A stretch of DNA of 64,000 bases from an uncultured virus (IMG/VR IMGVR_UViG_3300028559_000007) (IMGVR_UViG_3300028559_000007); one strand, 5' to 3'; counted from the stretch's first letter, positions 3 to 62,365 are shown. Numbers and translations: made by a program. The notes: generated by a model not told the origin, from the sequence alone.

Positions 3-1376
3 CAGCTCGCTCTTTTTTAACCCCCTCAAATTTATTTGAGGGGGTATTGACTAAAACTTATATTGAACGGATCTTATGGTGCATTTGCGACGCAATACTT
101 CATACTTTTCAACCAACACGTTGCTGGCACAATTACAGCGCAAGGAAGGGATCTAACTAAAACAATGCATGCTGTAAATGAAAAATACTGGTATACACAA
201 TGGCATTTAGATTATGAGTTACATGCTAGATTGTGTGTAAAAAATGTTACACCAATTTCTAAAAAAAATGGAGAAGAAGTAAGTATCTATGCAGATACAG
301 ATTCACTATTCGTATCGTTTGAACCAGCTATTCAACACTGTGAGTGGAGAAATTTATTTATAAATAATATAGATTTATTAGATTCAAAATTCGCCATATT
401 AGAATATAGACAACAAACAAAAACTGATAACAATAACTGTCTTGGTATTTTTAGAAATACAGATGAGTTAAAAGAATTTTTGGAAAATAATAAGGTAGAT
501 TATTTAATTATTGATGGATATTTTGCTAAAGATAGAGGATTTAATTCACCTGATTTACAAAATGCTTTAAAAGATATTGTAATAAGATGGAACTGGTTTA
601 ATGAATTAGATTTTATTCATGGTATAGACGAATTTAGATTTGGAGGATATTTTAAAAATTGTTTAGAAGAGTATGCTGAAAGTTTTGGAGTTAAAAATCG
701 AGAGGATTTTGAGTTAGAGAGGGTTTCAGAATCTATTATGAATTTTTCTAAAAAGAAATATATACAGAATATTGTATATGAAGACGGAATTCCATTTGAT
801 AGACTATCATATATATTTCCTAAGGGTGTAGAACTTGTAAGATCATCAACACCCTTATTTGCAAGAGAGAAAATCATACAAATTGTTAAATATTTATTTG
901 AGCATCCAGATAATTTTAATATTAAAGATTTGCTTAAATTGGTTAAAAATTTAAGAAAAGAGTTTGAATTGGCTAATATTGATGATATATCAATGCAATC
1001 ATCCTGTTCTAACTATGAAACAAAAGTTTTAGAAGATAAAGATAGATTGAGTTTTGTTTCTGGTGCTCACTTTGCCGTTAAATCAGCAGCTTATTATAAT
1101 TTTCTTCTAAATCAAAATAAAGGATTACAATCTAAATATGAATTTATTAAATCTGGAACAAAGATTAAATATTATCATTGTAAAAATAAGAAGATTAATG
1201 AGATATTTGCTTTTATAAGAGGTTCTTATCCTATTGAATTCGCTCCAGAGGTTGATTATGATTTACAATTTTATAAAACAATTATAAGTCCTATAAATTC
1301 AATTATTACACCACTTGGAATGCCAGAAATAACTAAAAGACTAAGTGTTGTATTAGATATTTTTGGAGGTTTTTAA
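3..1376 (+). CDS. Family B DNA polymerase (T4 gp43-like), C-terminal part; 5' part lies upstream of the window; motif B interrupted by a 39-nt insert (about 12-50)
   Basis: Motif B reads QLAL (3-14) then LKLILNGSYG (51-80) in the same frame; motif C YADTDS, KKKY and KGVE.VRSSTP are present in ORF 63..1376. Confidence 0.93.
12..50 (+). other. 39-nt in-frame insertion with two stop codons and a hairpin inside polymerase motif B
   Basis: TAA 18-20, TGA 48-50, stem ACCCCCTCAAA (20-30)/TTTGAGGGGGT (35-45); removal restores QLALKLILNGSYG. Confidence 0.8.
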
Positions 1377-2572: not shown

Positions 2573-3058
2573 ATGAATCACTTGATGAGATATGAAGGTT
2601 ATAGTTCAGTTGAAAGAATGGATGATATTTTAGATAAGATATCCAAATATGGTATTAATTCCTTATCAAAATTAGAAAAAGATTTTTTAGATTCATATAA
2701 GTCAGGAATTGAAAAAGAAACACATAAGGAATTAATAAAAAAAGAATCTGAAATAGTTTTTGAAGATGATATGGGCAATTTCAAATTCGAATTTGAAAAT
2801 TTTGAAAACCACGTAAATGAATATCATTATATTGGAAAATTATATGTCAAAGATTTAGAACTTGAAAATGGTGAAAAAATTAAAGGATGTTTAGATGGTA
2901 AAATTATAAAATTTGAAAATGAAAGTATATCTCCTGACTTTTATAGTAAAGAAGGTTATGACATTTTTGAGTTTACTAACGGTTTAGAATATGAGTTAGA
3001 TTCATTTATTGATTATGTTATTTCAGAAATAGATGAAAAACTTAAATATAAAGATTAA
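2573..3058 (+). CDS. Hypothetical protein with DUF6576-like motif (DDILDKISKYGINSLS..EK.FL)
   Basis: Motif recognised by eye; likely start ATG 2573 after AAATATATA. Confidence 0.6.
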   Translation: MNHLMRYEGYSSVERMDDILDKISKYGINSLSKLEKDFLDSYKSGIEKETHKELIKKESEIVFEDDMGNFKFEFENFENHVNEYHYIGKLYVKDLELENGEKIKGCLDGKIIKFENESISPDFYSKEGYDIFEFTNGLEYELDSFIDYVISEIDEKLKYKD

Positions 3059-3064
3059 TATATA
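3056..3064 (+). promoter_or_regulatory. TAATATATA putative phage late-promoter motif (representative copy)
   Basis: Recurs shortly upstream of many starts on both strands (e.g. 17677, 26118, 36966, 47083, 51730). Confidence 0.6.
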
Positions 3065-3083
3065 ATAAAAAATACAATAATAT

Positions 3084-3503
3084 ATGAAATTAAAGAAATA
3101 TAATCAATATGTCAAAGAAGATCTTCAATCAGTTGATAATATTGAAGATAACTCAAATAGACCAGTAGGTAGAAGATCAGGATCTCCATCTCCGGACTTT
3201 TCTAAGCCTAAAGGTATTTTTGATGAGAATGAAAATGATATGACTGGAGAATTAGAAGGTGAAAGAAAAGTGGGTCAGGATAACTTAAATGTTGATGAAC
3301 TTGAGGAAGAAGAAGGTCATGAATATGAGGGAACTAAACTAATGAAAAGTTTAGCTGAAAAGTTAGGAACAGAAATTATAAACAATTCTATTGAATATAA
3401 AGGTAAAAAAATAAACTTCTTCTCTGAAACAGAGGCTTTTCATATTGACAAAAAGAAATTTAAAACAATTGAAGAAGTTCTAACCTATTTAGGTAAAAAC
3501 TAA
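3084..3503 (+). CDS. Acidic hypothetical protein with capsid-targeting-like N-terminus
   Basis: MKLKKYNQYVKED start; upstream TAATATATA; downstream terminator. Confidence 0.7.
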   Translation: MKLKKYNQYVKEDLQSVDNIEDNSNRPVGRRSGSPSPDFSKPKGIFDENENDMTGELEGERKVGQDNLNVDELEEEEGHEYEGTKLMKSLAEKLGTEIINNSIEYKGKKINFFSETEAFHIDKKKFKTIEEVLTYLGKN

Positions 3504-3525
3504 AATACTTTAAATATCAATTAAG

Positions 3526-3554
3526 ACTCAAAATTAATAATTTTGAGTTTTTTT
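3526..3554 (+). terminator. Intrinsic terminator
   Basis: ACTCAAAATT/AATTTTGAGT stem plus T-tract. Confidence 0.7.
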
Positions 3555-3618
3555 ATTTCTGAAAATAGAGGATGATGTTTTAGATATATACTGAGAGAAG
3601 AAGATAACTCTTAATTTT

Positions 3619-4086
3619 ATGAATATTATAGAAGTTATCAGTTTTATTAGAAAATCAAAAGATCATCATTTTTTATCAGTAGATAAAAAAATCTGGAATA
3701 GATGGTCAATATTAATAAAATTATTTGTTTTACTAAACAAAAATTATGTACCATGTGTTATTTATAGGAAAAAATATAAATTTCTTAAAAATATTGTTAT
3801 AATTGGACTAAAATGGAATGGTAAAAATGTTAAAAGAAGAACTAGTGGATTTGCAAAAGAGTTTTTAAAAAACAATGAAAATGTAAAATGTATTTATTGT
3901 GGATCTAAATTAACAGTAGATAACGCTACAACAGATCATATTATACCAATATCAAAAGGTGGAAACAACTGTCAGATAAACCTTGTCGTTGTTTGTTTTG
4001 ACTGTAATAATGAAAGAGGAGATTTAAACTTTTATGAATATATGAAAATTAAAAATCCTAAATATTTTAAAAGTCATTATTTTTAA
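3619..4086 (+). CDS. HNH endonuclease
   Basis: CIYCG..TTDHIIPISKGG..NLVVVCFDCN. Confidence 0.9.
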   Translation: MNIIEVISFIRKSKDHHFLSVDKKIWNRWSILIKLFVLLNKNYVPCVIYRKKYKFLKNIVIIGLKWNGKNVKRRTSGFAKEFLKNNENVKCIYCGSKLTVDNATTDHIIPISKGGNNCQINLVVVCFDCNNERGDLNFYEYMKIKNPKYFKSHYF

Positions 4087-5260
4087 AAGATTTTAAATAA
4101 TCTTTTTCAGTTTTAATACTTTTTCTGTAAATATTTTTAGGTAAATATTTTATATCAAATAAATCATTTGAAAAAAAATTATATATATTTAATTTTTTAA
4201 AAGAATTAGGTACTAATTCATTAAGTTTATTTAAATCCTTTACTTTAGAAATTCTATATAAAAGCTTGTGAGGATCATCAGACTTTTTTTTAGATATAAT
4301 ATCTTCAAATAATTTTTTCCATAGAAATACCTTACCACCTTCTCTTATTTTTTCTTCTGATTTATTAAATCCTGCTGTATCATTATCGAAAAAATATTGC
4401 AAATCTAAATTGTTATTTTCTAAAAATTGCAAATCTGTATTTACTCCAACTATACCAATTGAATTTGGATAAAATAGAGAATCTAAATATCCTTCAAAGA
4501 TTGTTATTGTATTTTCAAAATTAACATTTAGAATATTAAAAAAATATGATAATTTATTATAAATAACGGACTTATGAATATCTAGTTCAACATCTTCACC
4601 ATGTATCCATTTATAAATAGATTCCCAATTATAAATAACAAAAAATCTCCTACGTCCTTCTTTTAGATTACGAACTTGCAATCCTAATACTTTATCTTCT
4701 CTTCTATTTAAGAATACGATAACATGTTCAAATCCTTCATCACCTTTAGAAAATTTAGCTTGGTATATATTTTTATGTAACTCTTTTGGAATACCGCGAC
4801 CTATTAAATATTTAAATACACCACTTCTTTCATTAATAGGGGCAAAGTCAAATATAGGTGTAGTTTTTTTAACATTAAATAGTTCTTCTAATTCTTTCAT
4901 ATTAATTAGATCATCTAATTTGAAATCTGCAAGATCTGTATCATAGTCAGAATAACTAACAATTGAATCTAAATATTCAATCATTTCAAGTTTTTTCTGA
5001 GGATCTATGACTTCATCAAAATCAGTAGCCATTCTATCAAATGAAGTTTTTTTATCACATCTGAAACAAATGAAGAATAATTTATTAAAATAAAGATTAC
5101 CTCTTTTTTTGTGTTGAGATTTACCTTCTTTACAATAAGGACATCGCATATTTATACGATCTTCATAAACAATAACCTTTCTAAATATTGGCGATGTAAA
5201 TTCTTTATCTAATAAATTTTGAATAATACTTTGTATATAAACTTTATCCATATATATCAT
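4067..5260 (-). CDS. DNA primase (T4 gp61-like)
   Basis: Zn finger CPYC..CFRC; TOPRIM motifs IFEGYLDS and FFDNDTAG; KDLN. Confidence 0.9.
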   Translation of the reverse strand: MIYMDKVYIQSIIQNLLDKEFTSPIFRKVIVYEDRINMRCPYCKEGKSQHKKRGNLYFNKLFFICFRCDKKTSFDRMATDFDEVIDPQKKLEMIEYLDSIVSYSDYDTDLADFKLDDLINMKELEELFNVKKTTPIFDFAPINERSGVFKYLIGRGIPKELHKNIYQAKFSKGDEGFEHVIVFLNRREDKVLGLQVRNLKEGRRRFFVIYNWESIYKWIHGEDVELDIHKSVIYNKLSYFFNILNVNFENTITIFEGYLDSLFYPNSIGIVGVNTDLQFLENNNLDLQYFFDNDTAGFNKSEEKIREGGKVFLWKKLFEDIISKKKSDDPHKLLYRISKVKDLNKLNELVPNSFKKLNIYNFFSNDLFDIKYLPKNIYRKSIKTEKDYLKSFKNNDF

Positions 5261-40430: not shown

Positions 40431-41216
40431 TTATACATATTTCCATATATAACCACCAGCGGTTTTAACCTTACCTTTACAACAAGCACATATATTAACA
40501 CTTAATATATTTGTTTCTTTTTCAGCCATTTTTATTGATGAGTATCTATTTATCTCATTTAAATTCTTATCAAATTGAATAACTTGCTTTCTTAGAAACC
40601 TAATCTCAACCTTATTTAAATCTACATCATTATCATATTTCCAAATAAACCCCCTATGATGATTCCTCTTACCTTTAAGACAATTAGATATTTTAGAAGC
40701 ACTGAAATATCCACCACTTTCAAATATAGCATCACTAATACACTTATATCTTTTTATTTGATTATAATCAGTATCGTATTGAATTATTGGTTTATAACTA
40801 GCAACATTAGAAATTCCAATTAATTTATTTTTAATTTTCTGTTTAGTTTCGTCACTACAAGCAATACCTTTATTATGAGGTATATTACCCTTTTTAAATG
40901 ATCCCTTATTACCAAAAGTCGAACCATCCCCACCTAATGTATAATTAACTAAATCAAATCCCCATGTTTTAAATAAAGAGATATAGAATTTCTCCCAATA
41001 ATGCCATTCAATAATTGGAACCTCATCTATAATAATTAATTCTGGTCTAAAACCATCCTTTCTAATACTATTTATCCAATTTCTTTTGTGTGTGTTTTTA
41101 TCTCTTGATGAATTGAAATGATTTGTATATCTATCTTTTGGATTATTAGCCTTACCAATATATCTAACTTGATTAGTTCTTGGATCAGATAAAGCATATA
41201 TGAAAACATTTTGCAT
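40431..41216 (-). CDS. GIY-YIG homing endonuclease with NUMOD-type repeats
   Basis: FIYAL..RYIGKA..R; two I.QYD..CxKG..GxIWKY repeats. Confidence 0.88.
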   Translation of the reverse strand: MQNVFIYALSDPRTNQVRYIGKANNPKDRYTNHFNSSRDKNTHKRNWINSIRKDGFRPELIIIDEVPIIEWHYWEKFYISLFKTWGFDLVNYTLGGDGSTFGNKGSFKKGNIPHNKGIACSDETKQKIKNKLIGISNVASYKPIIQYDTDYNQIKRYKCISDAIFESGGYFSASKISNCLKGKRNHHRGFIWKYDNDVDLNKVEIRFLRKQVIQFDKNLNEINRYSSIKMAEKETNILSVNICACCKGKVKTAGGYIWKYV

Positions 41217-52306: not shown

Positions 52307-52511
52307 TTGATTTTAACATATCATTAAAGTCAATATCAATCACACCATCTAAATCACTATAAAGTTCTCTTAAAATCATCTTTAACCTAACCATTTCATC
52401 ATCCGAAAGCAAACCATCATTCAGTTTATTTCCAAAAACAACTTTTGACATTCCCATTTTCTGAGCCAATAATGTTTGGTTCAATTTCCATTTTTTAATT
52501 ACTTCTAACAT
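52299..52511 (-). CDS. Small HTH protein downstream of the transposase
   Basis: LNQTLLAQKMGMSK. Confidence 0.65.
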   Translation of the reverse strand: MLEVIKKWKLNQTLLAQKMGMSKVVFGNKLNDGLLSDDEMVRLKMILRELYSDLDGVIDIDFNDMLKSII

Positions 52512-53439
52512 TTTTTAATTCTTTATAGGTTAAACGATTGTTAATATTATTAAGGACATAATCAAATCTATAACTTTCTGAAAATCCACGAGTGTTATAT
52601 CTGAAAACAAATTCATCAACATATCTTTGTAAATGTTTCTTACTCATTGAATGATAAATACCCATTATTCCTCTCTTCAAAATTGCCCAAAATCCTTCAA
52701 TTGTATTTGTGTGAATATCACCTTTAACATATTCCTTACTATTGTGTTTTACAACATTATGATCAAAGATTTTAGATAATCCTTTATATCCTAACCATTC
52801 ATCAGTATTTAACGGATTTCCTGATTTTAAGTTTTTGTGTATAAACTTCTTCAAGATTTCTCCTGATGTTCCATCTACAACATTGGCTCTCAATTCGCCA
52901 CCTCTTTTAATAATTCCAACAACTGGGATTTTAGTTTTCAAACTTCTACCTTGTGTTCCCTTTGTCTTTTTACTTTGATGTTTATTCTTTTCTTGACCAC
53001 CAATATAAGTTTCATCTGCTTCACAAGTTCCTTCTAATTTATCAGTTGGTTGATTATTTAATCCTAAACTATGTCTAACTCTATGAAGCATAAACCAAGC
53101 AGTTTTTTGAGTAATTCCTAAATCTTTGTGTAATTGTAAAGATGATATACCTTTCTTATGCGAAGTTATAAGATAAATAGCAGCAAACCATTTTTGTAGA
53201 GATATTTTACTTCCTTCAAACATTGTTCCAACTCTTACTGAAAATTGTTTCTTACATTTATCACACTTATAAACTTTACCATTACTATATTTGAAAACTT
53301 TATCGTGCTTACAATCTTCATAAGGACAGGTTATATTACCATTCCATCTAATTTGTTCCAAATATTCTCTACACACTTGTTCATTATTGAAGTATGTGAA
53401 AAGTTGGACTAAATTATTGAATTTCTGTAAGATTATCAT
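52495..53439 (-). CDS. IS1595-family DDE transposase
   Basis: Zn ribbon CPY..C..CDKC, GISSLQL..TAWFM.HR, EADETY.GG, TDEW..Y, HTNTIEGFW. Confidence 0.96.
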   Translation of the reverse strand: MIILQKFNNLVQLFTYFNNEQVCREYLEQIRWNGNITCPYEDCKHDKVFKYSNGKVYKCDKCKKQFSVRVGTMFEGSKISLQKWFAAIYLITSHKKGISSLQLHKDLGITQKTAWFMLHRVRHSLGLNNQPTDKLEGTCEADETYIGGQEKNKHQSKKTKGTQGRSLKTKIPVVGIIKRGGELRANVVDGTSGEILKKFIHKNLKSGNPLNTDEWLGYKGLSKIFDHNVVKHNSKEYVKGDIHTNTIEGFWAILKRGIMGIYHSMSKKHLQRYVDEFVFRYNTRGFSESYRFDYVLNNINNRLTYKELKNVRSN

Positions 53440-54079: not shown

Positions 54080-54793
54080 TTATATTAACTTATTTTTTAT
54101 TAATTTATCATTAAAATCACCACTTCTTTCAAAATATTTATTTACAACTTTAAAAGATTTATTTACAAATCTACCACTTGATGTTTTAATAACAATTCCT
54201 TCTCTAATACCATTTCTATAATCAGAATTTTTCTCAGACCATTCAACAATATCTGAAATAGAATTAATTTTTAATTTAATAGGTTTAATATATTTAATAT
54301 TTGTTTTAGATAATAATTCTTCAACTACTTCAGGTGATAAAAACTCATAATCCTCAGCAGACCATATATCATAAGCTATAAATAAATCAGGAATTTTGTC
54401 ATAATATAAGGAATGTTTTGCAAACATCCACTCACCATATATTGTAATTGGTGAATAACACAACTCACTAATAATTTTAATATCATCTTCATGTTTATGA
54501 ATCCAATTCCAAGCTGATGTGAATTGCATCTTAGCAGGTGTTTTTATTTTAGTATATCCTTTTTTAAGAATATGACTTCTATTTCGAAGAATGGGTCCAT
54601 CTGTCCAAGATATACCCATATTAGCACCATCAATTTTTTCTTGAATAAAACACTCAAATGGAAATTGCATAGGAGTATCTAACTCGATATCATCGTGAGT
54701 CATATTAGAAATTTCTTTACTAAAATGTGGTATTCTCCAATAGTCTGGGGCAATATTTCTAATTTTCATTTTCTGTATTTTTATATTTATCAT
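54080..54793 (-). CDS. ATP-dependent RNA ligase family protein
   Basis: EKIDGAN, YGEW, FIAYDI, EGIVIK, FKVV; likely start 54769. Confidence 0.85.
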   Translation of the reverse strand: MINIKIQKMKIRNIAPDYWRIPHFSKEISNMTHDDIELDTPMQFPFECFIQEKIDGANMGISWTDGPILRNRSHILKKGYTKIKTPAKMQFTSAWNWIHKHEDDIKIISELCYSPITIYGEWMFAKHSLYYDKIPDLFIAYDIWSAEDYEFLSPEVVEELLSKTNIKYIKPIKLKINSISDIVEWSEKNSDYRNGIREGIVIKTSSGRFVNKSFKVVNKYFERSGDFNDKLIKNKLI

Positions 54794-54932: not shown

Positions 54933-55204
54933 CTTTTTAATATACTTTGTATTAATTTATCTAAGTTATATTCTCGTAAATTAGTCTCCTCAACTTTTAC
55001 ATGAACTTTACTTTGTCTTATTTTTTCTATTTTAAGTATTCTAAGATACTTGCTATTCCAATATACTAAATTATCATTAGAATTTATAAAGTTAATAACT
55101 TCTTTATTGTTTTTAAACTCTAAAATAACAATTCCCGGTAAATGATCAAATTTTGTTAATTTCCATCTATCTTGATTGGATAAAACTTTTGCGTGTTGTA
55201 TCAT
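54929..55204 (-). CDS. Hypothetical protein (REYNLDKLI tail)
   Basis: ORF in ligase operon. Confidence 0.6.
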   Translation of the reverse strand: MIQHAKVLSNQDRWKLTKFDHLPGIVILEFKNNKEVINFINSNDNLVYWNSKYLRILKIEKIRQSKVHVKVEETNLREYNLDKLIQSILKR

Positions 55205-55859
55205 ATATTTCTAATAGTTTTTTATCTCCGTTAAGTTCTTCAAGAAGAGCTCTTTCTCCATGTAAAGTCTTTACTTTTTGAATCCAATCAATAGTTTTAA
55301 CTTTTACCATCCAAATTTCATCTTTTTGTTTTTTCGTTTTTGAAATACCTTTAACAATGACTCCCTCTTTTAATTTATATTTATTGTTTCTAATATCTTG
55401 AACAAAATCCATTGTATATTTTCCCTTATAAATAATATCTGGTATATGTAAATGTCCAAAATCTTCAATAAAGTTTTTTGGAGTAACAAATCCATGTTTA
55501 TATTGGTCAACATCAAATAGTATAATATCTTTTGGATCACTATCAATATGACGACCAGCAAAGGATTCATCTCCAAAATATTCAGCAAATACTAAAAAAC
55601 TTTCAATTCGTTTATAACTTTTATTTGTTCTGAATACTTTAGGAAGACTATCACCATACTTATTTAAAAATAGTGTGATAGCCTCTCCAAATTGTAAATC
55701 TCTTTCATCAATCATTATATTTCTGGTTCCAAATTTATACCATCCTCTTTTAGGATTCCATTCAGCACGAATATTACTACCATCTAATTTATCAAATGCA
55801 TAGATGTCTTCGTTAAATATACCCTGGTTAAAATATTGTATTCTTGGATAACTTTTCAT
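55167..55859 (-). CDS. RNA ligase-like nucleotidyltransferase
   Basis: DKLDGSN, FAEY, LFDV, EGVIVK, VKVK. Confidence 0.85.
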   Translation of the reverse strand: MKSYPRIQYFNQGIFNEDIYAFDKLDGSNIRAEWNPKRGWYKFGTRNIMIDERDLQFGEAITLFLNKYGDSLPKVFRTNKSYKRIESFLVFAEYFGDESFAGRHIDSDPKDIILFDVDQYKHGFVTPKNFIEDFGHLHIPDIIYKGKYTMDFVQDIRNNKYKLKEGVIVKGISKTKKQKDEIWMVKVKTIDWIQKVKTLHGERALLEELNGDKKLLEIYDTTRKSFIQSR

Positions 55860-55863
55860 AATT

Positions 55864-56070
55864 TTATTTATTTAATTCTTTTTTAATCCACTCTTTAAGC
55901 TGATGCTTTTCAGAGCGTTTTACTCCACGTTTTTCACGTTCAAGATCTTTTTTGATTTTCTTAACCATATTTGGATCTTGTATAAAATGAAGAGCTCTTT
56001 TTCTTTTCTTTATGCTTTGGACCTTTTCTTCATATATGTTTTCAAAGTCCTCGTTAACATCGGTTTTCAT
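55864..56070 (-). CDS. Small basic protein
   Basis: ORF in operon. Confidence 0.55.
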   Translation of the reverse strand: MKTDVNEDFENIYEEKVQSIKKRKRALHFIQDPNMVKKIKKDLEREKRGVKRSEKHQLKEWIKKELNK

Positions 56071-56411
56071 AGTCTTTCAGATTTTTTATAAGCTAATTCA
56101 TAGCTTGAGTTAATTTTTTTATATAGCTTTTCAGCCGTAAATTCTTCTAAATGTTTTCCCTTAGTTTGGATAATATACCACTCAGTATATCCACAATTAA
56201 ATTGTTCTGCTTTAAAGTGACAACCATCATAACAATCGCAAAGTGTTATACCATTCTCCTTTACATATCCACCATTTGGTATATTTTTTCTTGAAGTTAT
56301 ATGATGTGCATCAAGTTTAACATCACTTTTACCGCACATTACACACTTAAAGTTGTCTCTTTCAAAAACATCTTTTCTAAATTTATCTCTTATTTGTTGT
56401 TTGATTTTCAT
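56067..56411 (-). CDS. HNH endonuclease
   Basis: VFERDNFKCVMCG..DAHHI..NGITLC..CH. Confidence 0.88.
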   Translation of the reverse strand: MKIKQQIRDKFRKDVFERDNFKCVMCGKSDVKLDAHHITSRKNIPNGGYVKENGITLCDCYDGCHFKAEQFNCGYTEWYIIQTKGKHLEEFTAEKLYKKINSSYELAYKKSERL

Positions 56412-57562: not shown

Positions 57563-57626
57563 ATAAGTATTTAATTTTACTTATATATTAACTATAATTA
57601 TTGACTTTTATAAATTGTATCGAAAG

Positions 57627-57715
57627 CAGAGGTAGCCGTAATCGAAACGGGCCCGTCATTACACGGTTCTTGTTTTCCAAACAAGCGAGAGCCACCTGCT
57701 CTACCTACTACCTCT
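57627..57715 (-). tRNA. tRNA-Ser(GGA)
   Basis: AGAGGTA/TACCTCT acceptor, CTTGT-TTGGAAA-ACAAG, long variable arm; non-canonical T arm. Confidence 0.8.
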
Positions 57716-57722
57716 AAATTTG

Positions 57723-57795
57723 TAGTTCCAGTGAGATTCGAACTCACATTATATCTTTCGCAAAGATATGTCCTATCCAATTGGACGATGGAACC
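57723..57795 (-). tRNA. tRNA-Arg(GCG)
   Basis: Full cloverleaf; TATCT-TTGCGAA-AGATA. Confidence 0.88.
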
Positions 57796-57801
57796 TAATT
57801 T

Positions 57802-58500
57802 TTATTTTACTCTACCTCTTAATATATCTGAAATTGTACTTCTAGCACATCCTAATCTTAATGATATTTCTTTATTTGTTAGTCCTTCTTTGTGCCACTC
57901 AAAGACAATTTCTCTATCTATTTTTTTTGAAATTTTTTTTATTTTATAGTTTTTTATTAAATCTATATTTTCTATATAAAAATTCATATCAAAATGTTCA
58001 GAAACGTGACAATTAGAACAAAGTACTTCACATTTTTTTATCTCATTTTTAATAATATTATTCAATTCATGTATTGAGTTTAATCTCTCACTCAAAGATC
58101 CAATTGAAAATGTTTTTTCATTCGGATCTCGATGGTGAAATGTCAATCCTGATGCACACTTATTATATCCACATTTTACACATTTAGCACCGGCATATTC
58201 TAAATAGATAATTTTATCATTTCTTCTTTTATCATTTATGTTTGACTTCTCTGAAAAATGTAATTCTCTATGGCAATTTTGACATAGTAATTGACACTTT
58301 TTAGCTTCCTTTAATATCATGTCAAAAGAACAAGATGATTTCTCACTAATTCGGAACTCTTTTTCTTTATCAACATGATGAAAACAGAGATGTATAAAAT
58401 CATCATTTCCACATATCTGACAACATCCACCTAATTCACTTACTAATAAAATTTTATTTTTTATTCTTCTTATTTTTTGTAATATGTTCTTATTACTCAT
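57802..58500 (-). CDS. Homing endonuclease with two HNH-like domains and C-terminal HTH, inside the tRNA array
   Basis: Two CxxCG..FHH..C..LCxNCH units; NKEISLRLGCARSTIS. Confidence 0.85.
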   Translation of the reverse strand: MSNKNILQKIRRIKNKILLVSELGGCCQICGNDDFIHLCFHHVDKEKEFRISEKSSCSFDMILKEAKKCQLLCQNCHRELHFSEKSNINDKRRNDKIIYLEYAGAKCVKCGYNKCASGLTFHHRDPNEKTFSIGSLSERLNSIHELNNIIKNEIKKCEVLCSNCHVSEHFDMNFYIENIDLIKNYKIKKISKKIDREIVFEWHKEGLTNKEISLRLGCARSTISDILRGRVK

Positions 58501-58542
58501 GGTCGAGTTTTATTTTTATATATAAAAATAAAACTCGACCAT
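58499..58542. promoter_or_regulatory. Perfect 44-bp palindrome overlapping the endonuclease start codon
   Basis: ATGGTCGAGTTTTATTTTTATA/TATAAAAATAAAACTCGACCAT. Confidence 0.8.
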
Positions 58543-58553
58543 TTGTACTTTTG

Positions 58554-58645
58554 CGGAAGTGGTGAGTGCCGACCTCACTCGCCGGTTTTTAGCCGGCCTA
58601 TCACGTTAGCAATGTGACCCCTTTGCCATCATTGGGTACACTTCC
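58554..58645 (-). tRNA. tRNA-Ser(GCT)
   Basis: GGAAGTG/CACTTCC acceptor, loop TTGCTAA, long variable arm; T loop GTCGGCA. Confidence 0.8.
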
Positions 58646-58712
58646 AAAAATAAGAATACAAGGGTTACCAATCTTTACCAGTGGTTAATTGGTGGCTTAT
58701 ATATTCTTTAAG

Positions 58713-58801
58713 CGGAGGTAACAGGAGTCCAACCTGTACGCCGGAGTTTCACCGACCTAGCCGTTTTCAAGACGGTGTACCTCTGTCAACTGGGTACCTC
58801 C
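58713..58801 (-). tRNA. tRNA-Ser(TGA), atypical D and T loops
   Basis: GGAGGTA/TACCTCC, CCGT-CTTGAAA-ACGG, long variable arm. Confidence 0.7.
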
Positions 58802-58809
58802 AAAATTTG

Positions 58810-58898
58810 AGGAGGAAATCAGATTCGAACTGATGAATCATATTTCTACGATTTTCGCTTTTCAAGAGCGACGGAATAAACCACTCTCCCATTCCTCC
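58810..58898 (-). tRNA. tRNA-Ser(TGA)
   Basis: Canonical class II cloverleaf; TCGCT-CTTGAAA-AGCGA. Confidence 0.88.
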
Positions 58899-58904
58899 AA
58901 TAAT

Positions 58905-58977
58905 TCGGTGTCATTCTCCTATTATGATACTATGTGTAGCTATTTCACACGATGGGATTCGAACCCACATCTACCGA
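58905..58977 (-). ncRNA. Circularly permuted tRNA-like RNA (YrlA-type arm order)
   Basis: TCGGT/ACCGA closing stem, then T arm GTGGG-TTCGAAT-CCCAT, loop-closed stem GTGTG/TACAC, D-like arm TCAT-AATAGGAGA-ATGA. Confidence 0.65.
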
Positions 58978-58980
58978 TTG

Positions 58981-59059
58981 ACCTCCAGGTGAGATTCGAA
59001 CTCACATCTATCCGTTACGGTATTTAACTTGTTTCGAAGACAAGGCCGATACAGGAGGT
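58981..59059 (-). tRNA. tRNA-Arg(TCG)-like RNA lacking a D arm, with extended variable region
   Basis: ACCTCC/GGAGGT acceptor, CTTGT-CTTCGAA-ACAAG, GTGAG-TTCGAAT-CTCAC. Confidence 0.65.
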
Positions 59060-59062
59060 TAT

Positions 59063-59102
59063 AAAATAAAAAATCCTCGAACTTTTTCAAATTCGAGGAT
59101 TT
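59063..59102 (-). terminator. Attenuator terminator upstream of the Ser/Arg tRNA block
   Basis: AAATCCTCGAA/TTCGAGGATTT stem plus U-tract on minus strand. Confidence 0.85.
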
Positions 59103-59127
59103 CGTGTATTTTTATTTTAGCAATACA

Positions 59128-59196
59128 TTACCATCTTCGAATTTTATTCGAACTACGACTTGACGACGATAATGATGTATTGTTCATGATTTTCAT
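59128..59196 (-). CDS. Ser/Arg-rich leader peptide MKIMNNTSLSSSSRSSNKIRRW
   Basis: 7 Ser and 3 Arg codons in 22; lies between promoter and terminator; overlaps antiterminator segment. Confidence 0.8.
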   Translation of the reverse strand: MKIMNNTSLSSSSRSSNKIRRW

Positions 59197-59211
59197 ATTA
59201 TTTATATATTA

Positions 59212-59243
59212 CAAATATACTTTTTTGTTTTTAAATTTCCAAA
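59212..59243 (-). promoter_or_regulatory. Bacteroidota-type promoter (TTTG-20-TATATTTG) directly followed by TAATATATA
   Basis: Exact consensus match. Confidence 0.75.
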
Positions 59244-59249
59244 TTTTAT

Positions 59250-59747
59250 TTAAAAATTATCTGATACTTCTCTAATTTCTTTATATTTTTCATAAAATAC
59301 AAACATTTTTTCTGCATCACTTATGTTAAGATATTTTAAAGAAAAGAATGTTGGCATTCCATTTACTGAAGTTGGTCCGGCTTGATCTAAATATTCATAG
59401 ATAAGTCCTATATTTCCCAAGAATACTTTTTTAAAAATTTTATATTCTTGATTATATAATATAATATCATTATCATATTTTTTTTGTTCAATCTCTCTAT
59501 CAACAATATCATAAATTACATTATCTCTTTTACCAGATAATGTACTATTTTCTGATGGATAAGATGGTGATTTAGGAACATCGGGCCCAATAAACATTAA
59601 ACACATGAAACAACTATTAACATCAGAAGATGATCTACAGTGGCGGTCAGTATATATGATTCCATTATATAGATCTTTAGCTATTTTTTTTAGTTCATCT
59701 TCTGTTGATGAATTAATAGTCCATTTATTTATCCAATCTTGTTCCAT
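59250..59747 (-). CDS. Hypothetical protein
   Basis: ORF; IYEYLDQAGP..VNGMP.F motif. Confidence 0.65.
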   Translation of the reverse strand: MEQDWINKWTINSSTEDELKKIAKDLYNGIIYTDRHCRSSSDVNSCFMCLMFIGPDVPKSPSYPSENSTLSGKRDNVIYDIVDREIEQKKYDNDIILYNQEYKIFKKVFLGNIGLIYEYLDQAGPTSVNGMPTFFSLKYLNISDAEKMFVFYEKYKEIREVSDNF

Positions 59748-59764
59748 TTTGTAAATATAATAAT

Positions 59765-60061
59765 TTATTCAATTATATCATTTAAAACTTTACCAAATTG
59801 TATAATATATTGCTCAAGTAATCTAAACTCATTATCTGAATCACCATCAAGTCTATAATGTCTGAAGTTTTTTATATCCATAAATCTCATTTCATAACCA
59901 CAATTAAATGGTGTTTCTATCTGATTAGTGTAGAAAATAGTAAATACTAATCTAGCATTTCCAGAATTAACTCCTTGAACCCATACTTTTGTAATATTAG
60001 GTCTTAATCTAGAGTTAATAATATCTCTTAATTTAATTAATGTAATTGAGAATGTGTCCAT
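59765..60061 (-). CDS. Hypothetical protein
   Basis: ORF. Confidence 0.6.
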   Translation of the reverse strand: MDTFSITLIKLRDIINSRLRPNITKVWVQGVNSGNARLVFTIFYTNQIETPFNCGYEMRFMDIKNFRHYRLDGDSDNEFRLLEQYIIQFGKVLNDIIE

Positions 60062-60086
60062 ATAATTATTTATTTTTAAAGATTTG

Positions 60087-60215
60087 CGGGGAGGGTTGGA
60101 TTCGAACCAACGACTTATATGTTCAAAATATACGAAGTAACTCTTTCGATCAACACTCTTTTCAGAGGTAAAGTTTCAAAAGAGATAGTTTACTCTACCA
60201 CTGAGCTACCTCCCC
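60087..60215 (-). ncRNA. tRNA-like RNA with about 55-nt insertion after the D arm
   Basis: GGGGAGG/CCTCCCC acceptor, D arm GCTC-AGTGGTA-GAGT, T arm GTTGG-TTCGAAT-CCAAC, inserted hairpin CTCTTTT..GAAAAGAG. Confidence 0.7.
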
Positions 60216-60220
60216 ATTTG

Positions 60221-60303
60221 TGGAACTGGTGGGACTCGAACCCACGACGTGATTTATCAGGCGGCTTAAGAGGCCGATGCAATCGCCACTATGCGACAGT
60301 TCC
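60221..60303 (-). tRNA. tRNA-Lys(CTT) with long variable arm
   Basis: CGGC-CTCTTAA-GCCG; variable arm TGAT-AA-ATCA. Confidence 0.82.
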
Positions 60304-60308
60304 GAATG

Positions 60309-60394
60309 TGTGCCTGGTGGGATTCGAACCCACGATGTGGTATTAACCAGACGGTTTAAAAGACCGTTGCTCTCAGCCGCTGAGCGACAAGCAC
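60309..60394 (-). tRNA. tRNA-Lys(TTT) with long variable arm
   Basis: ACGGT-CTTTTAA-ACCGT; variable arm TGGT-TAAT-ACCA. Confidence 0.82.
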
Positions 60395-60399
60395 ATTAG

Positions 60400-60482
60400 T
60401 CCGTCCGGTAGAATTCGAATCTACGATGTCACAAGGAGTCAGATTAAAAGTCTGATGGTATCAGCCACTCACCCACGGACGG
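60400..60482 (-). tRNA. tRNA-Lys(TTT) with long variable region
   Basis: TCAGA-CTTTTAA-TCTGA; 14-nt variable region. Confidence 0.8.
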
Positions 60483-60495
60483 ATTATATATTTTG

Positions 60496-60568
60496 TGCGT
60501 CCGAAGGGATTTGAACCCTTAACCTGCTGGTTAAAAGCCAGCTACTCTAACAATTGAGTTACGAACGC
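60496..60568 (-). tRNA. tRNA-Lys(TTT)
   Basis: Class I cloverleaf; GCTGG-CTTTTAA-CCAGC. Confidence 0.9.
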
Positions 60569-60611
60569 GGTTTACTTTCGGGTCGGTTCGTGAATCAACC
60601 ACTTACCAACC

Positions 60612-60653
60612 CTATCGTTTATATTTTCGTTTTATTATTGTAATAGTTCTCAT
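60612..60653 (-). CDS. Lys/Arg-rich mini-ORF MRTITIIKRKYKR ahead of the Lys tRNAs
   Basis: 13 codons; stop overlaps hairpin 60580-60612. Confidence 0.45.
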   Translation of the reverse strand: MRTITIIKRKYKR

Positions 60654-60746
60654 TTTATTATAATTTTTTAGGTCAATTCGATGTAGCTTATAACACCTCG
60701 ATTTAATCTTCTGTTCGTATGAAGAACTTCTCGAATTAACATTTAG

Positions 60747-60817
60747 CACGAGTGGCTACAATCGAAGTAGCTCGTGAAGATTTTGGAGATCCCACCGACA
60801 CCAAGCCTGTCACCCGT
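60747..60817 (-). tRNA. tRNA-Trp(CCA), atypical D arm
   Basis: ACGGGTG/CACTCGT, GGGAT-CTCCAAA-ATCTT, CTAC-TTCGATT-GTAG. Confidence 0.7.
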
Positions 60818-60822
60818 ATTTG

Positions 60823-60895
60823 TGGTTTCAGACGGACTTGAACCGCCGACGCTCGCCTCTTCAGGGCGACGCTCTACCAACTGAGCTATGAAACC
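60823..60895 (-). tRNA. tRNA-Phe(GAA)
   Basis: Canonical; TCGCC-CTGAAGA-GGCGA. Confidence 0.93.
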
Positions 60896-60900
60896 TTTTG

Positions 60901-60990
60901 CATACTCGTAGGGATTCGAACCCTCACCAATCGTTAGACCCCTTTCGGAGAGCGGGTTGGAGCCGCCTGGTCACGCCTATGAGCGAGTAC
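60901..60990 (-). tRNA. tRNA-Trp(CCA)-like RNA with extra arm
   Basis: GTACTCG/CGAGTAT, GCGG-CTCCAAC-CCGC, extra GAAA-tetraloop hairpin, T loop TTCGAAT. Confidence 0.65.
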
Positions 60991-60998
60991 ATTTTTTG

Positions 60999-61072
60999 GG
61001 TGAATGACGGGTTTCGATCCCGCTGCCTTAGGTGCCACAAACCTACGCTCTACCAATTGAGCTACAATCACC
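60999..61072 (-). tRNA. tRNA-His(GTG)
   Basis: G-1/C73; TAGGT-TTGTGGC-ACCTA. Confidence 0.9.
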
Positions 61073-61102
61073 ATTTTGTCATCCTGTTAAATCAGGACTT
61101 CG

Positions 61103-61175
61103 TGGAGTCTCCCGGTTACGATCCGGGTCCTCTGGTTTTTCAGACCAGTGCTTCTACCAAGTTAGCTTAGACTCC
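61103..61175 (-). tRNA. tRNA-Phe(GAA)
   Basis: GGAGTCT/AGACTCC; CTGGT-CTGAAAA-ACCAG. Confidence 0.85.
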
Positions 61176-61180
61176 ATTTG

Positions 61181-61253
61181 GGTGTTATATGGGATTTGAA
61201 CCCATCCCCTGGTTTTCACAGAACCAGATGCTTACCACTACAACAACAACACC
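61181..61253 (-). tRNA. tRNA-His(GTG)
   Basis: G-1/C73; TGGTT-CTGTGAA-AACCA. Confidence 0.82.
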
Positions 61254-61255
61254 AT

Positions 61256-61292
61256 AAAAACAAAAAACCCGAATCTTTTGGATTCGGGTTTT
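61256..61292 (-). terminator. Attenuator terminator upstream of the His/Phe/Trp/Lys tRNA block
   Basis: AAAACCCGAATC/GATTCGGGTTTT stem plus U-tract. Confidence 0.85.
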
Positions 61293-62328: not shown

Positions 62329-62365
62329 AATTAAAACCCCTTCAATATTTGAAGGGGTTTTAATT
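62329..62365. terminator. Bidirectional terminator
   Basis: 17-bp stem AATTAAAACCCCTTCAA/TTGAAGGGGTTTTAATT between convergent genes. Confidence 0.8.

What the first reader, a model, noticed from the sequence alone, without database searches (positions are those of the whole stretch)
3..80. 39-nt stop-containing hairpin inserted in the dNTP-binding motif B of the DNA polymerase: candidate ribosomal bypass or mini-intron
Seen: CAG CTC GCT CTT [TTT TAA CCC CCT CAA ATT TAT TTG AGG GGG TAT TGA] CTA AAA CTT ATA TTG AAC GGA TCT TAT GGT. Both sides are in one frame, and deleting 39 nt gives QLALKLILNGSYG, a complete family B motif B (Q..K...N..YG). The insert has two stops, an 11-bp stem and Leu CUN codons at both edges. 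Known: T4 gene 60 hopping and Magnusiomyces mitochondrial byps use a take-off codon, a stalling codon, a hairpin and a matched landing codon. Inference: restarting at TTG 63 would lose the conserved Lys, so a plain split gene fits poorly. Bypassing, RNA splicing or DNA excision is implied if the gene is functional. Caveats: CTT/CTA is not an exact codon match and only 11 nt of upstream coding sequence are visible.
Basis: partly seen in the sequence, partly recalled or inferred. Interest (0 to 1): 0.85.

Follow-up and report, generated by a model that had tools for sequence, protein, structure and literature searches.

The report
Ribosome-hop hairpin gap in phage polymerase
A huge lake phage carries 36 untranslatable, hairpin-forming bases inside the most conserved motif of its DNA polymerase gene, next to a selfish nuclease gene, and comparison with relatives suggests that ribosomes jump over them, a trick shown at the bench only for phage T4 gene 60.

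Summary
Window 15-50 is a 36-nt gap with two in-frame stops and an 11-bp GC-clamped hairpin. It lies between Leu codons CTT (12-14) and CTA (51-53), inside motif B (QLAL|KLILNGSYG) of a family-B DNA polymerase.

The upstream DNA is not the polymerase N-half. The polymerase is split, and this C-terminal gene starts only 33 codons before the gap, beside a DUF7487 homing-endonuclease-like gene.

Uninterrupted relatives in 635-735 kb phages read straight through the site. Of 80 related viral contigs, 41 carry such gaps, at five codon positions and in all frames.

Across 31 distinct gaps:
- all fold into one hairpin starting 5-6 nt after the take-off codon;
- 23 of 23 gaps of four types have take-off and landing codons sharing their first two bases;
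- gap-bearing alleles alone have a co-varying 5' helix that ends at the take-off codon.

Both gene parts stay under purifying selection, and the gap tracks the nuclease gene.

Best reading, about 60%: a mobile nuclease cassette whose target-disrupting insert is skipped by programmed translational bypass. It is analogous to T4 mobA/gene 60 but not homologous. This is unproven, because there are no RNA or protein data, and one gap type (after Tyr) lacks matched codons. The scan found the same kind earlier on other genomes.

The parts
3..11 (+). Codons Q-L-A of the leader. They form the 3' arm (CAGCTCGCT) of a 5' stem-loop. Its 5' arm (AGCGAGTTG) lies 39 nt upstream, outside the window, at L001 9944-9952.
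   Evidence: Searches show a 9-bp helix that ends at the base before the take-off codon. Covariation was counted. The Leu codon used here, CTC, is rare in this genome (0.8 per 1000).
12..14 (+). Proposed take-off codon CTT (Leu), the last codon read before the gap.
   Evidence: It lies 5-6 nt before the hairpin, as in nearly all of the 31 distinct gaps. It shares its first two bases with the landing codon.
15..50 (+). 36-nt coding gap, with in-frame stops TAA 18-20 and TGA 48-50.
   Evidence: The gap is absent from uninterrupted homologues.
20..45 (+). Hairpin: 11 bp, loop TTTA, base of five C-G pairs.
   Evidence: -18.8 kcal/mol; 0 of 200 shuffles fold as well. Relatives have different apical stem sequences at the same place.
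51..53 (+). Proposed landing codon CTA (Leu).
   Evidence: It is the first CTN triplet after the hairpin. CTA fills this position in all 16 distinct type-A gaps.
54..1376 (+). The resumed reading frame of the polymerase C-terminal gene: K of motif B, NGSYG, the DTDS motif, the KKKY motif and the thumb. The stop is TAA 1374-1376.
   Evidence: Pfam PF00136, E 1e-12. PHROG DNA polymerase families. A profile match to solved family-B polymerases runs across the gap site.
47..160 (+). Out-of-frame 37-codon ORF that starts at TTG ACT AAA inside the end of the gap. It is probably not a gene and is listed because it overlaps the landing site.
   Evidence: The string ATTGACTAAA also forms the start of the leader at L001 9892-9901. 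This repeat is unexplained.

Best explanation
The insert is the target-disrupting part of a mobile homing-endonuclease cassette, and ribosomes most likely skip it by programmed translational bypass.

Shown here:
- This huge-phage clade encodes its family-B polymerase as two distant genes.
- The C-terminal gene begins with a 33-codon leader (the second fingers helix) that runs into motif B.
- In the window's phage, a DUF7487 homing-endonuclease-like gene sits on the opposite strand directly upstream of that gene.
- A 36-nt gap sits inside motif B.

Inferred:
1. The nuclease cuts the conserved motif-B DNA of phages that lack the cassette during co-infection.
2. Repair copies the nuclease gene, the recoded leader and the gap into the cut genome.
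3. The gap protects the carrier from being cut itself.
4. During translation, the ribosome reads the leader and stops with peptidyl-tRNA-Leu on CUU (12-14), when the GC-clamped hairpin starting 5-6 nt downstream reaches the mRNA entrance.
5. The tRNA lets go of the codon and the ribosome slides over the gap.
6. A 5' helix, whose 3' arm ends exactly at the take-off codon, refolds behind the ribosome and makes the movement one-way.
7. [quoted passage not shown]
8. Decoding resumes at AAA, giving one chain that reads QLALKLILNGSYG.
For: 1. The motif is continuous in relatives. Four huge-phage records (LR756502, LR745206, LR756501, LR756504) and 38 of the 80 related IMG/VR loci have no gap. A profile of the family aligns across the site to solved family-B polymerases.

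2. Gaps are frequent. 41 of the 80 loci carry one (1 locus could not be judged). They sit at five codon positions: after Ala, Leu, Val, Ser or Tyr. Extra lengths are 36-48 nt and mostly not multiples of three, so readthrough cannot repair them.

3. All 31 distinct gaps fold into one hairpin of 9-16 bp (-16.8 to -31.5 kcal/mol, z -4.5 to -10.6). The apical stem sequences differ. The 5' spacer is 5-6 nt in 25 of 31, and shorter (0-4 nt) in the other six, where the predicted stem extends toward the take-off codon. A stop lies within the 6 nt after the take-off codon in 27 of 31.

4. Take-off and landing codons share their first two bases in 23 of 23 gaps of types A, B, C and E. In these 23, the landing codon is also the first such triplet after the hairpin. 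Take-off codons are nearly always NNT. Landing codons are mostly NNA.

5. Gap-bearing alleles have a 5' helix.
   - 21 of 23 distinct gap-bearing leaders (types A, B, C) have a helix of 8-13 bp. It ends exactly at the take-off codon in 19 of 23, and it shifts by one codon in type B.
   - The best helix scores a median 9.5 in gap-bearing leaders against 4.8 in 20 gap-free leaders (Mann-Whitney p 3e-8; the rows are not independent).
   - On 17 type-A rows, 88.7% of cells pair, against 28-37% when the partner is slid. 6 of 12 pairs change on both sides, and 0 of 500 shuffles reach this.
   - On the same columns of 21 gap-free rows, 43.7% of cells pair, and 218 of 500 shuffles reach this.
   - The window's own fold shows both helices.

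6. dN/dS is 0.07-0.21 for both the leader and the downstream part among gap-bearing pairs, similar to gap-free pairs. dS is saturated.

7. A homing-endonuclease-like gene lies directly upstream in 15 of 28 distinct gap-bearing loci: 12 by Pfam DUF7487, 2 by PHROG only, and 1 GIY-YIG. It lies upstream in 0 of 17 gap-free loci (Fisher p 1e-4).

8. Gap presence needs at least 10-12 changes on the polymerase tree, and near-identical polymerases differ in it.

9. In the pair L014/L021, the flanks are 90-95% identical, but the 137 nt between the nuclease gene and the gap are only 84% identical. This is what a co-converted cassette would look like.

10. The layout parallels T4. Gene 60 starts beside mobA and has its 50-nt gap after codon 46. 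Passages of the Manning and Atkins preprint describe the same design.
Against: - No RNA, ribosome or protein data exist.
- The window's pair is CTT/CTA, not an identical pair. It needs one tRNA-Leu that reads both codons. No tRNA-Leu is among the 12 tRNAs of the window, and the host is unknown.
- The codon after the take-off codon is TTT, the commonest codon here (50 per 1000). It is not a stop or a hungry codon. The stop comes one codon later.
- Type D gaps (after Tyr, 8 distinct) lack a synonymous landing codon in 6 of 8 (AAC x3, AGC, GAC, CAA; TAA in the other 2). Their 5' helices are weaker.
- The hairpin starts 5-6 nt after the take-off codon, whereas in T4 it includes that codon.
- The G-run cannot simply be called a landing Shine-Dalgarno sequence. 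0 of 58 ORFs in the window have such a motif before the start codon.
- The shared first two bases could be a 2-3 nt target-site duplication left by insertion.
- Purifying selection could partly date from times when the lineages had no gap, because the cassette moves between genomes.
Confidence: 0.6

Rival explanations
1. RNA-level excision. The hairpin and its flanks are cut out of the mRNA and the ends are rejoined by phage enzymes, acting as a mini-intron, so ribosomes translate a continuous message.
For: The window encodes two RNA-ligase-family proteins (54080-54793 and 55167-55859, minus strand). The two conserved helices could be recognition elements. Type D gaps have no matching landing codon, and an excision mechanism would not need one.
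Against: There is no Rfam match. At 36-45 nt the gap is far below the size of group I or II introns. The 3' boundary lies in an A-rich spacer of variable length (2-10 nt) with no conserved structure. Excision does not explain the duplicated synonymous codon in 23 of 23 gaps of types A, B, C and E, or why it is the first such triplet after the hairpin. I know of no precedent in phages (recalled).
Confidence: 0.15
2. The insert is a selfish element that is merely tolerated. Either the gene is broken, or it works in pieces: the leader peptide plus a product restarted downstream.
For: The polymerase is already split into two distant genes. Some relatives are split again at motif C by intein-like sequence. 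TTG 63 exists in the window. L002 has a 111-nt deletion in the same gene. One complete relative (W02) has further weak PolB-exonuclease matches, so a spare polymerase cannot be excluded.
Against: There is no in-frame start between TGA 48-50 and the Lys codon. A restart at TTG 63 would lose the motif-B Lys, and that codon is not a start codon in most relatives. The downstream ORFs are intact, with dN/dS 0.08-0.16, in all gap-bearing pairs tested. The leader is equally constrained. A broken gene would not explain the helix found only in gap-bearing alleles or the fixed spacing.
Confidence: 0.12
3. DNA-level removal. The palindrome is excised or skipped during replication in part of the population, which restores an intact gene.
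For: Short direct repeats (CT...CT) flank a perfect palindrome, and such a layout can favour slippage.
Against: The contigs of 4 runs carry the gap without a difference, and no gap-less contig was laid, although contigs hide rare variants. A 2-nt repeat is very short. 31 distinct gaps kept across diverged phages argue for stable inheritance.
Confidence: 0.04

Closest known systems
Phage T4 gene 39 / mobA / gene 60 cassette with its 50-nt translational bypass, and its homologues in myovirus topoisomerase genes (Manning and Atkins, bioRxiv 10.1101/2022.08.31.505936; I read the abstract, passages and section 12)
   Same: - An essential replication gene is split, with a free-standing homing endonuclease gene at the split.
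- The downstream gene has a short leader: 46 codons in T4, 33 here.
- The leader is followed by an untranslatable gap inside an invariant motif.
- Both have a stop close to the take-off codon, a stable hairpin, a separate 5' stem-loop, an A/U-rich 3' part of the gap, a G-rich stretch 5-9 nt before landing, and related take-off and landing codons.
- Cassettes are found with and without the nuclease gene.
   Different: - The host gene is the family-B polymerase, not the topoisomerase. The word 'polymerase' occurs 0 times in that preprint, which calls the bypass cassette unique.
- The nuclease is DUF7487, with no HNH match in Pfam, and it lies on the opposite strand.
- The gap is 33-45 nt, not 50.
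- The hairpin starts 5-6 nt after the take-off codon instead of containing it.
- The codon pair is NNT then NNA, rather than identical.
- There are five insertion positions.
- The gene split itself predates the cassette, because gap-free relatives are split too.
- The genome shows no Shine-Dalgarno use.
byp elements of Magnusiomyces capitatus mitochondria (Lang et al. 2014 PNAS, recalled; mentioned in passages)
   Same: Short GC-rich hairpin inserts sit inside conserved coding sequence. They have matching take-off and landing codons, occur in many copies or variants, and behave as mobile DNA.
   Different: Those elements are mitochondrial and are not linked to a homing endonuclease. There the codon after take-off has no tRNA. 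There are dozens of sites per genome, whereas this 64 kb has one.
Split and 'fractured' phage replication genes: T4-like gp43A/gp43B, and the split-intein plus endonuclease loci of Dassa et al. 2009 (PMC2677866; passages read)
   Same: A family-B polymerase is encoded in two genes. Free-standing endonuclease genes lie at or near the breaks. Some relatives of this phage also carry intein-like sequence plus an endonuclease at motif C.
   Different: Those systems restore function by subunit assembly or protein trans-splicing. Here a non-coding hairpin lies inside one of the pieces, and there is no intein at that site.

Membership tests
Programmed translational bypass of the gene 60 kind (mechanistic class) | An untranslatable gap (stops or a frame change) interrupts an otherwise conserved, selected reading frame. 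| tested here: met
Programmed translational bypass of the gene 60 kind (mechanistic class) | [quoted passage not shown] | tested here: inconclusive
   The window has CTT and CTA. The first two bases agree in 23 of 23 gaps of types A, B, C and E, but in only 2 of 8 of type D. The decoding tRNA is unknown.
Programmed translational bypass of the gene 60 kind (mechanistic class) | A stop or slowly decoded codon directly follows the take-off codon. | tested here: not met
   In the window the next codon is TTT, the commonest codon, and the stop is one codon later. Across relatives a stop lies within 6 nt in 27 of 31 gaps, but directly after the take-off codon in only a few.
Programmed translational bypass of the gene 60 kind (mechanistic class) | A stable stem-loop lies at the take-off site. 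| tested here: met
   It starts 5-6 nt downstream of the take-off codon rather than including it.
Programmed translational bypass of the gene 60 kind (mechanistic class) | A separate 5' stem-loop lies upstream of the take-off codon. | tested here: met
   It is specific to gap-bearing alleles and shows compensatory changes.
Programmed translational bypass of the gene 60 kind (mechanistic class) | A Shine-Dalgarno-like sequence about 6 nt before the landing codon acts through 16S rRNA. | tested here: inconclusive
   The G-run of the stem lies 5-9 nt before the landing codon in most gaps. However, 0 of 58 ORFs in the window have such a motif at their starts.
Programmed translational bypass of the gene 60 kind (mechanistic class) | A nascent-peptide signal acts, and one polypeptide is made across the gap. 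| not testable with these tools
   No RNA run is listed. No proteomics or translation assay is available.
MobA / gene 60 mobile element (homology) | The element is inserted in the topoisomerase II large-subunit gene. | tested here: not met
   The host gene is a family-B DNA polymerase.
MobA / gene 60 mobile element (homology) | The element carries an HNH endonuclease of the Mob family. | tested here: not met
   The neighbour matches DUF7487 and PHROG 'homing endonuclease' families. Pfam gives no HNH match, even at E 5, on the C-terminal 150 residues. A fold comparison was not done.
Self-splicing or BHB introns | The sequence matches a known intron RNA family or has the conserved intron architecture. 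| tested here: not met
   No Rfam match at E up to 1 on L001 9800-10107. The gap is only 36 nt.
Family B DNA polymerase, split form | Motif B, motif C and the thumb lie in the C-terminal gene. The exonuclease domain and motif A lie in a separate gene. | tested here: met
   PF00136 in the window. A PF03104 ORF of about 510 aa with motif A lies more than 100 kb away in three relatives that are complete or nearly so. The N-terminal gene of this particular phage was not found, because no genome is held and it is not in the window.

The most novel reading that the evidence does not exclude
This is a second, independently evolved family of long-range programmed translational bypass, and it is common in nature: about half of the related huge-phage contigs carry it. 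It has its own design:
- a 5' helix that ends at the take-off codon;
- a GC-clamped hairpin 5-6 nt downstream;
- a weakly paired NNU take-off codon and a fully paired NNA landing codon;
- operation on ribosomes of hosts that do not use Shine-Dalgarno initiation.

It spreads with a DUF7487 homing endonuclease as that enzyme's self-immunity device. The after-Tyr variants would then show landing with little or no codon-anticodon match.
Probability: 0.5. Interest if true: 0.9.

Novelty: new variant of a known kind. Interest (0 to 1): 0.8.

Why it matters
Efficient long-range ribosome hopping has been shown at the bench only for T4 gene 60. Its published homologues all lie in topoisomerase genes. 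A second natural family would matter for three reasons.

- It would offer dozens of diverged variants, five insertion sites and clear covariation. That would give an independent test of which features of bypass are essential: the 5' helix as a ratchet, hairpin position, and the strength of codon pairing at take-off and landing.
- It would show that homing endonucleases have more than once paired a target-disrupting insert with recoding.
- Gene callers truncate these polymerase genes, so annotation of huge phages would need to account for such gaps.

Tried and rejected
- **Own genome:** none is held, so the N-terminal polymerase gene and a possible second polymerase of this phage could not be looked for. 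Pfam on 58 window ORFs found no polymerase N-half.
- **Near-identical DNA in the phage collection:** no match.
- **RNA evidence:** no RNA holder was listed among 24 runs, so expression and splicing could not be examined.
- **Gap-less DNA variants:** laying the contigs of 4 runs showed none, but contigs cannot show rare forms.
- **Solved structures:** the single sequence gave no match. Only the family profile did.
- **Rfam:** no match.
- **HNH domain in the nuclease C-terminus:** none found.
- **Barrier hairpin after the landing site:** 75 nt downstream fold only slightly better in gap-bearing alleles than in gap-free alleles (median -12.1 against -9.3 kcal/mol, p 0.04). I do not count this as a feature.
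- **The G-run as a landing Shine-Dalgarno sequence:** not supported by how this genome starts its genes.
- **Alternative take-off at the codon just before the stop (TTT in the window):** rejected. No matching landing codon exists, and the product would gain a residue inside the motif.
- **Readthrough of the stops:** rejected, because relatives differ in frame.
- **Type D landing:** I could not find a rule that fits all 8 variants.
- **Terminator reading:** the hairpin has a T-run before it and none after it, unlike the window's A-run/stem/T-run terminators at 61264-61292 and 62329-62365.
- **Literature:** four full-text searches found no paper that describes a bypass gap in a phage DNA polymerase. 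Subscription journals are not covered.

Full report
**What is in the window**

The frame from base 3 reads QLALF*PPQIYLRGY*LKLILNGSYGAF and continues as an open frame to the stop at 1374-1376. That frame is the C-terminal part of a family-B DNA polymerase: Pfam PF00136 at E 1e-12 and PHROG polymerase families.

Bases 20-45 form an 11-bp hairpin with five C-G pairs at its base. It folds at -18.8 kcal/mol, and 0 of 200 dinucleotide shuffles fold as well. It is the only C5...G5 hairpin in 64 kb of 25.9% G+C. The stops are TAA 18-20 and TGA 48-50. Removing 39 nt restores QLALKLILNGSYG.

**Upstream context**

No genome is held for the window. An exact 53-nt match found the same DNA at the end of an IMG/VR contig (L001; window position = L001 position minus 9980). 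Upstream of the window lie, in order:
- only 30 more codons of the same frame, starting at a TTG (L001 9893);
- an AT-rich spacer;
- a 381-residue gene on the opposite strand that matches Pfam DUF7487 and PHROG 'homing endonuclease' families;
- a 258-residue gene with no family match.

There is no polymerase N-half within 10 kb upstream or in the window. In three relatives that are complete or nearly so, an ORF of about 510 residues lies more than 100 kb from the C-terminal gene. It carries the exonuclease domain, motif A and the first fingers helix. So the polymerase of this clade is split at the tip of the fingers, and the gap lies 33 codons into the C-terminal gene.

**Relatives without the gap**

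The closest records in the phage collection are uncultured phages of 635-735 kb. In four of them the C-terminal gene starts with a similar leader and reads ..DYYNA[LM]QLALKL[VI]LNGSYG.. without a break. A profile of the family aligns across this site to solved family-B polymerases. The single sequence gave no match.

**Relatives with gaps**

A profile scan of IMG/VR matched 137 stretches, of which 93 were relatives, and kept the best 80. Of these 80:
- 41 have a gap in motif B (in L032 only the 3' end of the gap is on the contig);
- 38 have none;
- 1 (L084) could not be judged.

A pattern scan added three more variants.

The gaps sit at five positions:

| Type | Position | Distinct gaps |
|---|---|---|
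| A (the window's type) | after Leu | 16 |
| B | after Ala | 4 |
| C | after Val | 2 |
| D | after Tyr of NGSY | 8 |
| E | after Ser | 1 |

L075, also type A, was examined separately.

The extra length is 36-48 nt and mostly not a multiple of three. Stop-codon readthrough therefore cannot be the answer.

All 31 distinct gaps fold into one hairpin of 9-16 bp, at -16.8 to -31.5 kcal/mol. The C/G base of the stem is conserved but the apical pairs differ. The hairpin starts 5-6 nt after the last in-frame codon in 25 of 31; in the other six the predicted stem extends toward that codon (spacer 0-4 nt). A stop lies in the 6 nt after that codon in 27 of 31.

**Evidence bearing on the mechanism**

1. 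*Flanking codons.* In all 23 gaps of types A, B, C and E, the codon before the gap and the codon before the resumption point share their first two bases: CTT/CTA, GCT/GCT or GCA, GTT/GTA or GTT, TCT/TCA. The second of the pair is also the first such triplet after the hairpin. Translational re-pairing would require this. A precise excision would not need it. A 2-3 nt target duplication could mimic it.

2. *A 5' helix in gap-bearing alleles only.*
   - 21 of 23 distinct leaders of types A-C have a helix of 8-13 bp. It ends exactly at the take-off codon in 19 of 23, and it moves by one codon in type B.
   - On 17 type-A rows, 88.7% of cells pair (28-37% when slid). 6 of 12 pairs change on both sides, and 0 of 500 shuffles reach this.
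   - The same columns in 21 gap-free rows pair at 43.7%, which is no better than shuffles (218 of 500).
   - In the window the 3' arm is bases 3-11 and uses the rare Leu codon CTC (0.8 per 1000).
   - The fold of L001 9940-10040 shows both helices separated by the take-off codon plus five bases.
   - A 5' stem-loop that refolds behind the ribosome is part of the published gene 60 model (passages).

3. *Selection.* dN/dS is 0.07-0.21 for the leader and 0.08-0.16 for the downstream part among gap-bearing pairs, the same as in gap-free pairs. dS is saturated.

4. *No restart.* No in-frame start lies between TGA 48-50 and the Lys codon. TTG 63 would drop the Lys, and that codon is TTA, CTA, CTT or CTG in most relatives.

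**Why the gap exists**

- A homing-endonuclease-like gene lies directly upstream of the C-terminal gene in 15 of 28 distinct gap-bearing loci: 12 by Pfam DUF7487, 2 by PHROG only, and 1 GIY-YIG. It does so in 0 of 17 gap-free loci (Fisher p 1e-4).
- On a tree of 44 polymerase rows, gap presence needs at least 10-12 changes, and near-identical polymerases differ in it (L014/L021, L015/L017, L055/L056, L030/L071). For that tree I left out 14 distant rows, and also loci without an unbroken ORF of 250 residues after the motif.
- L014 and L021 are 95% identical downstream and 90-94% identical upstream. L021 has about 860 extra bases holding the nuclease gene. The 137 nt between that gene and the gap are only 84% identical.

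This pattern fits a cassette made of the nuclease gene, a recoded leader and the gap, spread by homing. The gap would disrupt the nuclease's target in conserved motif-B DNA. That role is inferred by analogy with MobA (section 12 of the preprint). It has not been tested here.

**Problems for the bypass reading**

- There are no RNA or protein data.
- The window's pair is CTT/CTA, and the tRNA that would read both is unknown.
- The codon after take-off is the common TTT.
- The hairpin does not include the take-off codon.
- The genome shows no Shine-Dalgarno use (0 of 58 ORFs), so the G-run cannot be assumed to guide landing. The absence also hints at a host with Shine-Dalgarno-independent initiation, such as Bacteroidota. 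That is my inference.
- Type D gaps lack a synonymous landing codon in 6 of 8 (AAC x3, AGC, GAC, CAA; TAA in 2), and their 5' helices are weaker. Minimal-pairing landing has been reported for gene 60 constructs (recalled, not read here), but I cannot show it.

**Comparison with what is known**

T4 gene 60 starts beside mobA, and its 50-nt gap follows codon 46. Its homologues all lie in topoisomerase genes. The word 'polymerase' does not occur in the Manning and Atkins preprint, which calls the cassette unique. Four full-text searches found no description of a bypass gap in a phage polymerase.

The present element works like the gene 60 cassette but fails its membership tests: a different host gene, a different nuclease family (no HNH match), and a different hairpin geometry. 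I rate it a new variant of a known kind.

Earlier notes of this scan describe the same kind of gap in other huge-phage windows. I re-derived the shared points independently. The gap-specific 5' helix is not mentioned in the lines of those notes that I saw.

**Verdict**

The best explanation is programmed translational bypass within a homing-endonuclease cassette, at about 0.6. The rivals are RNA excision (0.15), a tolerated break or working in pieces (0.12), and DNA-level removal (0.04).

Noticed in passing
L002 vs L003, about 6700-6800 in L003: L002 (a 172-kb contig) lacks 111 nt (37 codons) of the polymerase C-terminal gene, including the KKKY motif region. L003, otherwise identical there, has them. 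This could be a defective variant or an assembly difference.
   Followed up: no
L062, L063, L064, L069 (about 240 nt after motif B) and L067, L068, L073: In these relatives the same gene is broken again at motif C (YADTDS followed by Cys and intein-like sequence, then stops). In L062 and L063 a long ORF with KYG-type repeats and a Vsr-like C-terminus follows. This looks like the 'fractured gene' layout of Dassa et al. 2009.
   Followed up: partly
window 54080-54793 (-) and 55167-55859 (-): Two RNA-ligase-family genes (PF09414) lie next to a cluster of 12 tRNA genes at 57626-61252. The cluster holds 4 Lys, 3 Ser, 2 Phe, 2 His and 1 Arg. This bears on the RNA-excision rival.
   Followed up: no
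window, all 58 ORFs of 110 codons or more: No ORF has a GGAG, GAGG, AGGA or GGGG motif 4-20 nt before its first ATG (background 6.8%). The upstream regions are 88% A+T. In several relatives (L014, L015, L018, L022, L031, L043, L044) a phage-encoded IF3 gene lies next to the polymerase C-terminal gene.
   Followed up: partly
window 46-55 and L001 9892-9901: The string ATTGACTAAA occurs at the end of the gap (TGA, CTA, AAA in the polymerase frame) and again as the start of the leader (TTG ACT AAA). In my reading of the sequences, about half of the type-A gaps end in NTGACTAAA. This may hint that the gap derives from a gene's 5' region. It is unexplained.
   Followed up: no
window 52495-53439 (-): An IS1595-family transposase gene (DDE_Tnp_IS1595 at E 1e-44) lies inside the phage window. 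Other mobile-element genes are an HNH gene at 3619-4086 (+), a GIY-YIG gene at 40431-41216 (-) and a short HNH gene at 56067-56411 (-).
   Followed up: no
L001 822-4358: An NAD salvage set lies upstream of the polymerase: a NUDIX-domain protein (822-1823), an aminotransferase-like gene (1820-2911) and a nicotinamide phosphoribosyltransferase (2919-4358). A GIY-YIG endonuclease gene is at 275-883.
   Followed up: no
L052, L055, L056, L057, L060: The polymerase C-terminal proteins of this subclade are about 78 residues shorter (354-356 residues after the GAFA motif, against about 430). They appear to lack a variable region after motif C.
   Followed up: no
L001 10078-10107 (window 98-127): In three of the four runs laid (X1-X3), two extra contigs each (different depths in X1 and X2) have an end lying here. 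The IMG/VR contig also ends at window 127. Strain variants probably diverge just downstream of motif B.
   Followed up: no
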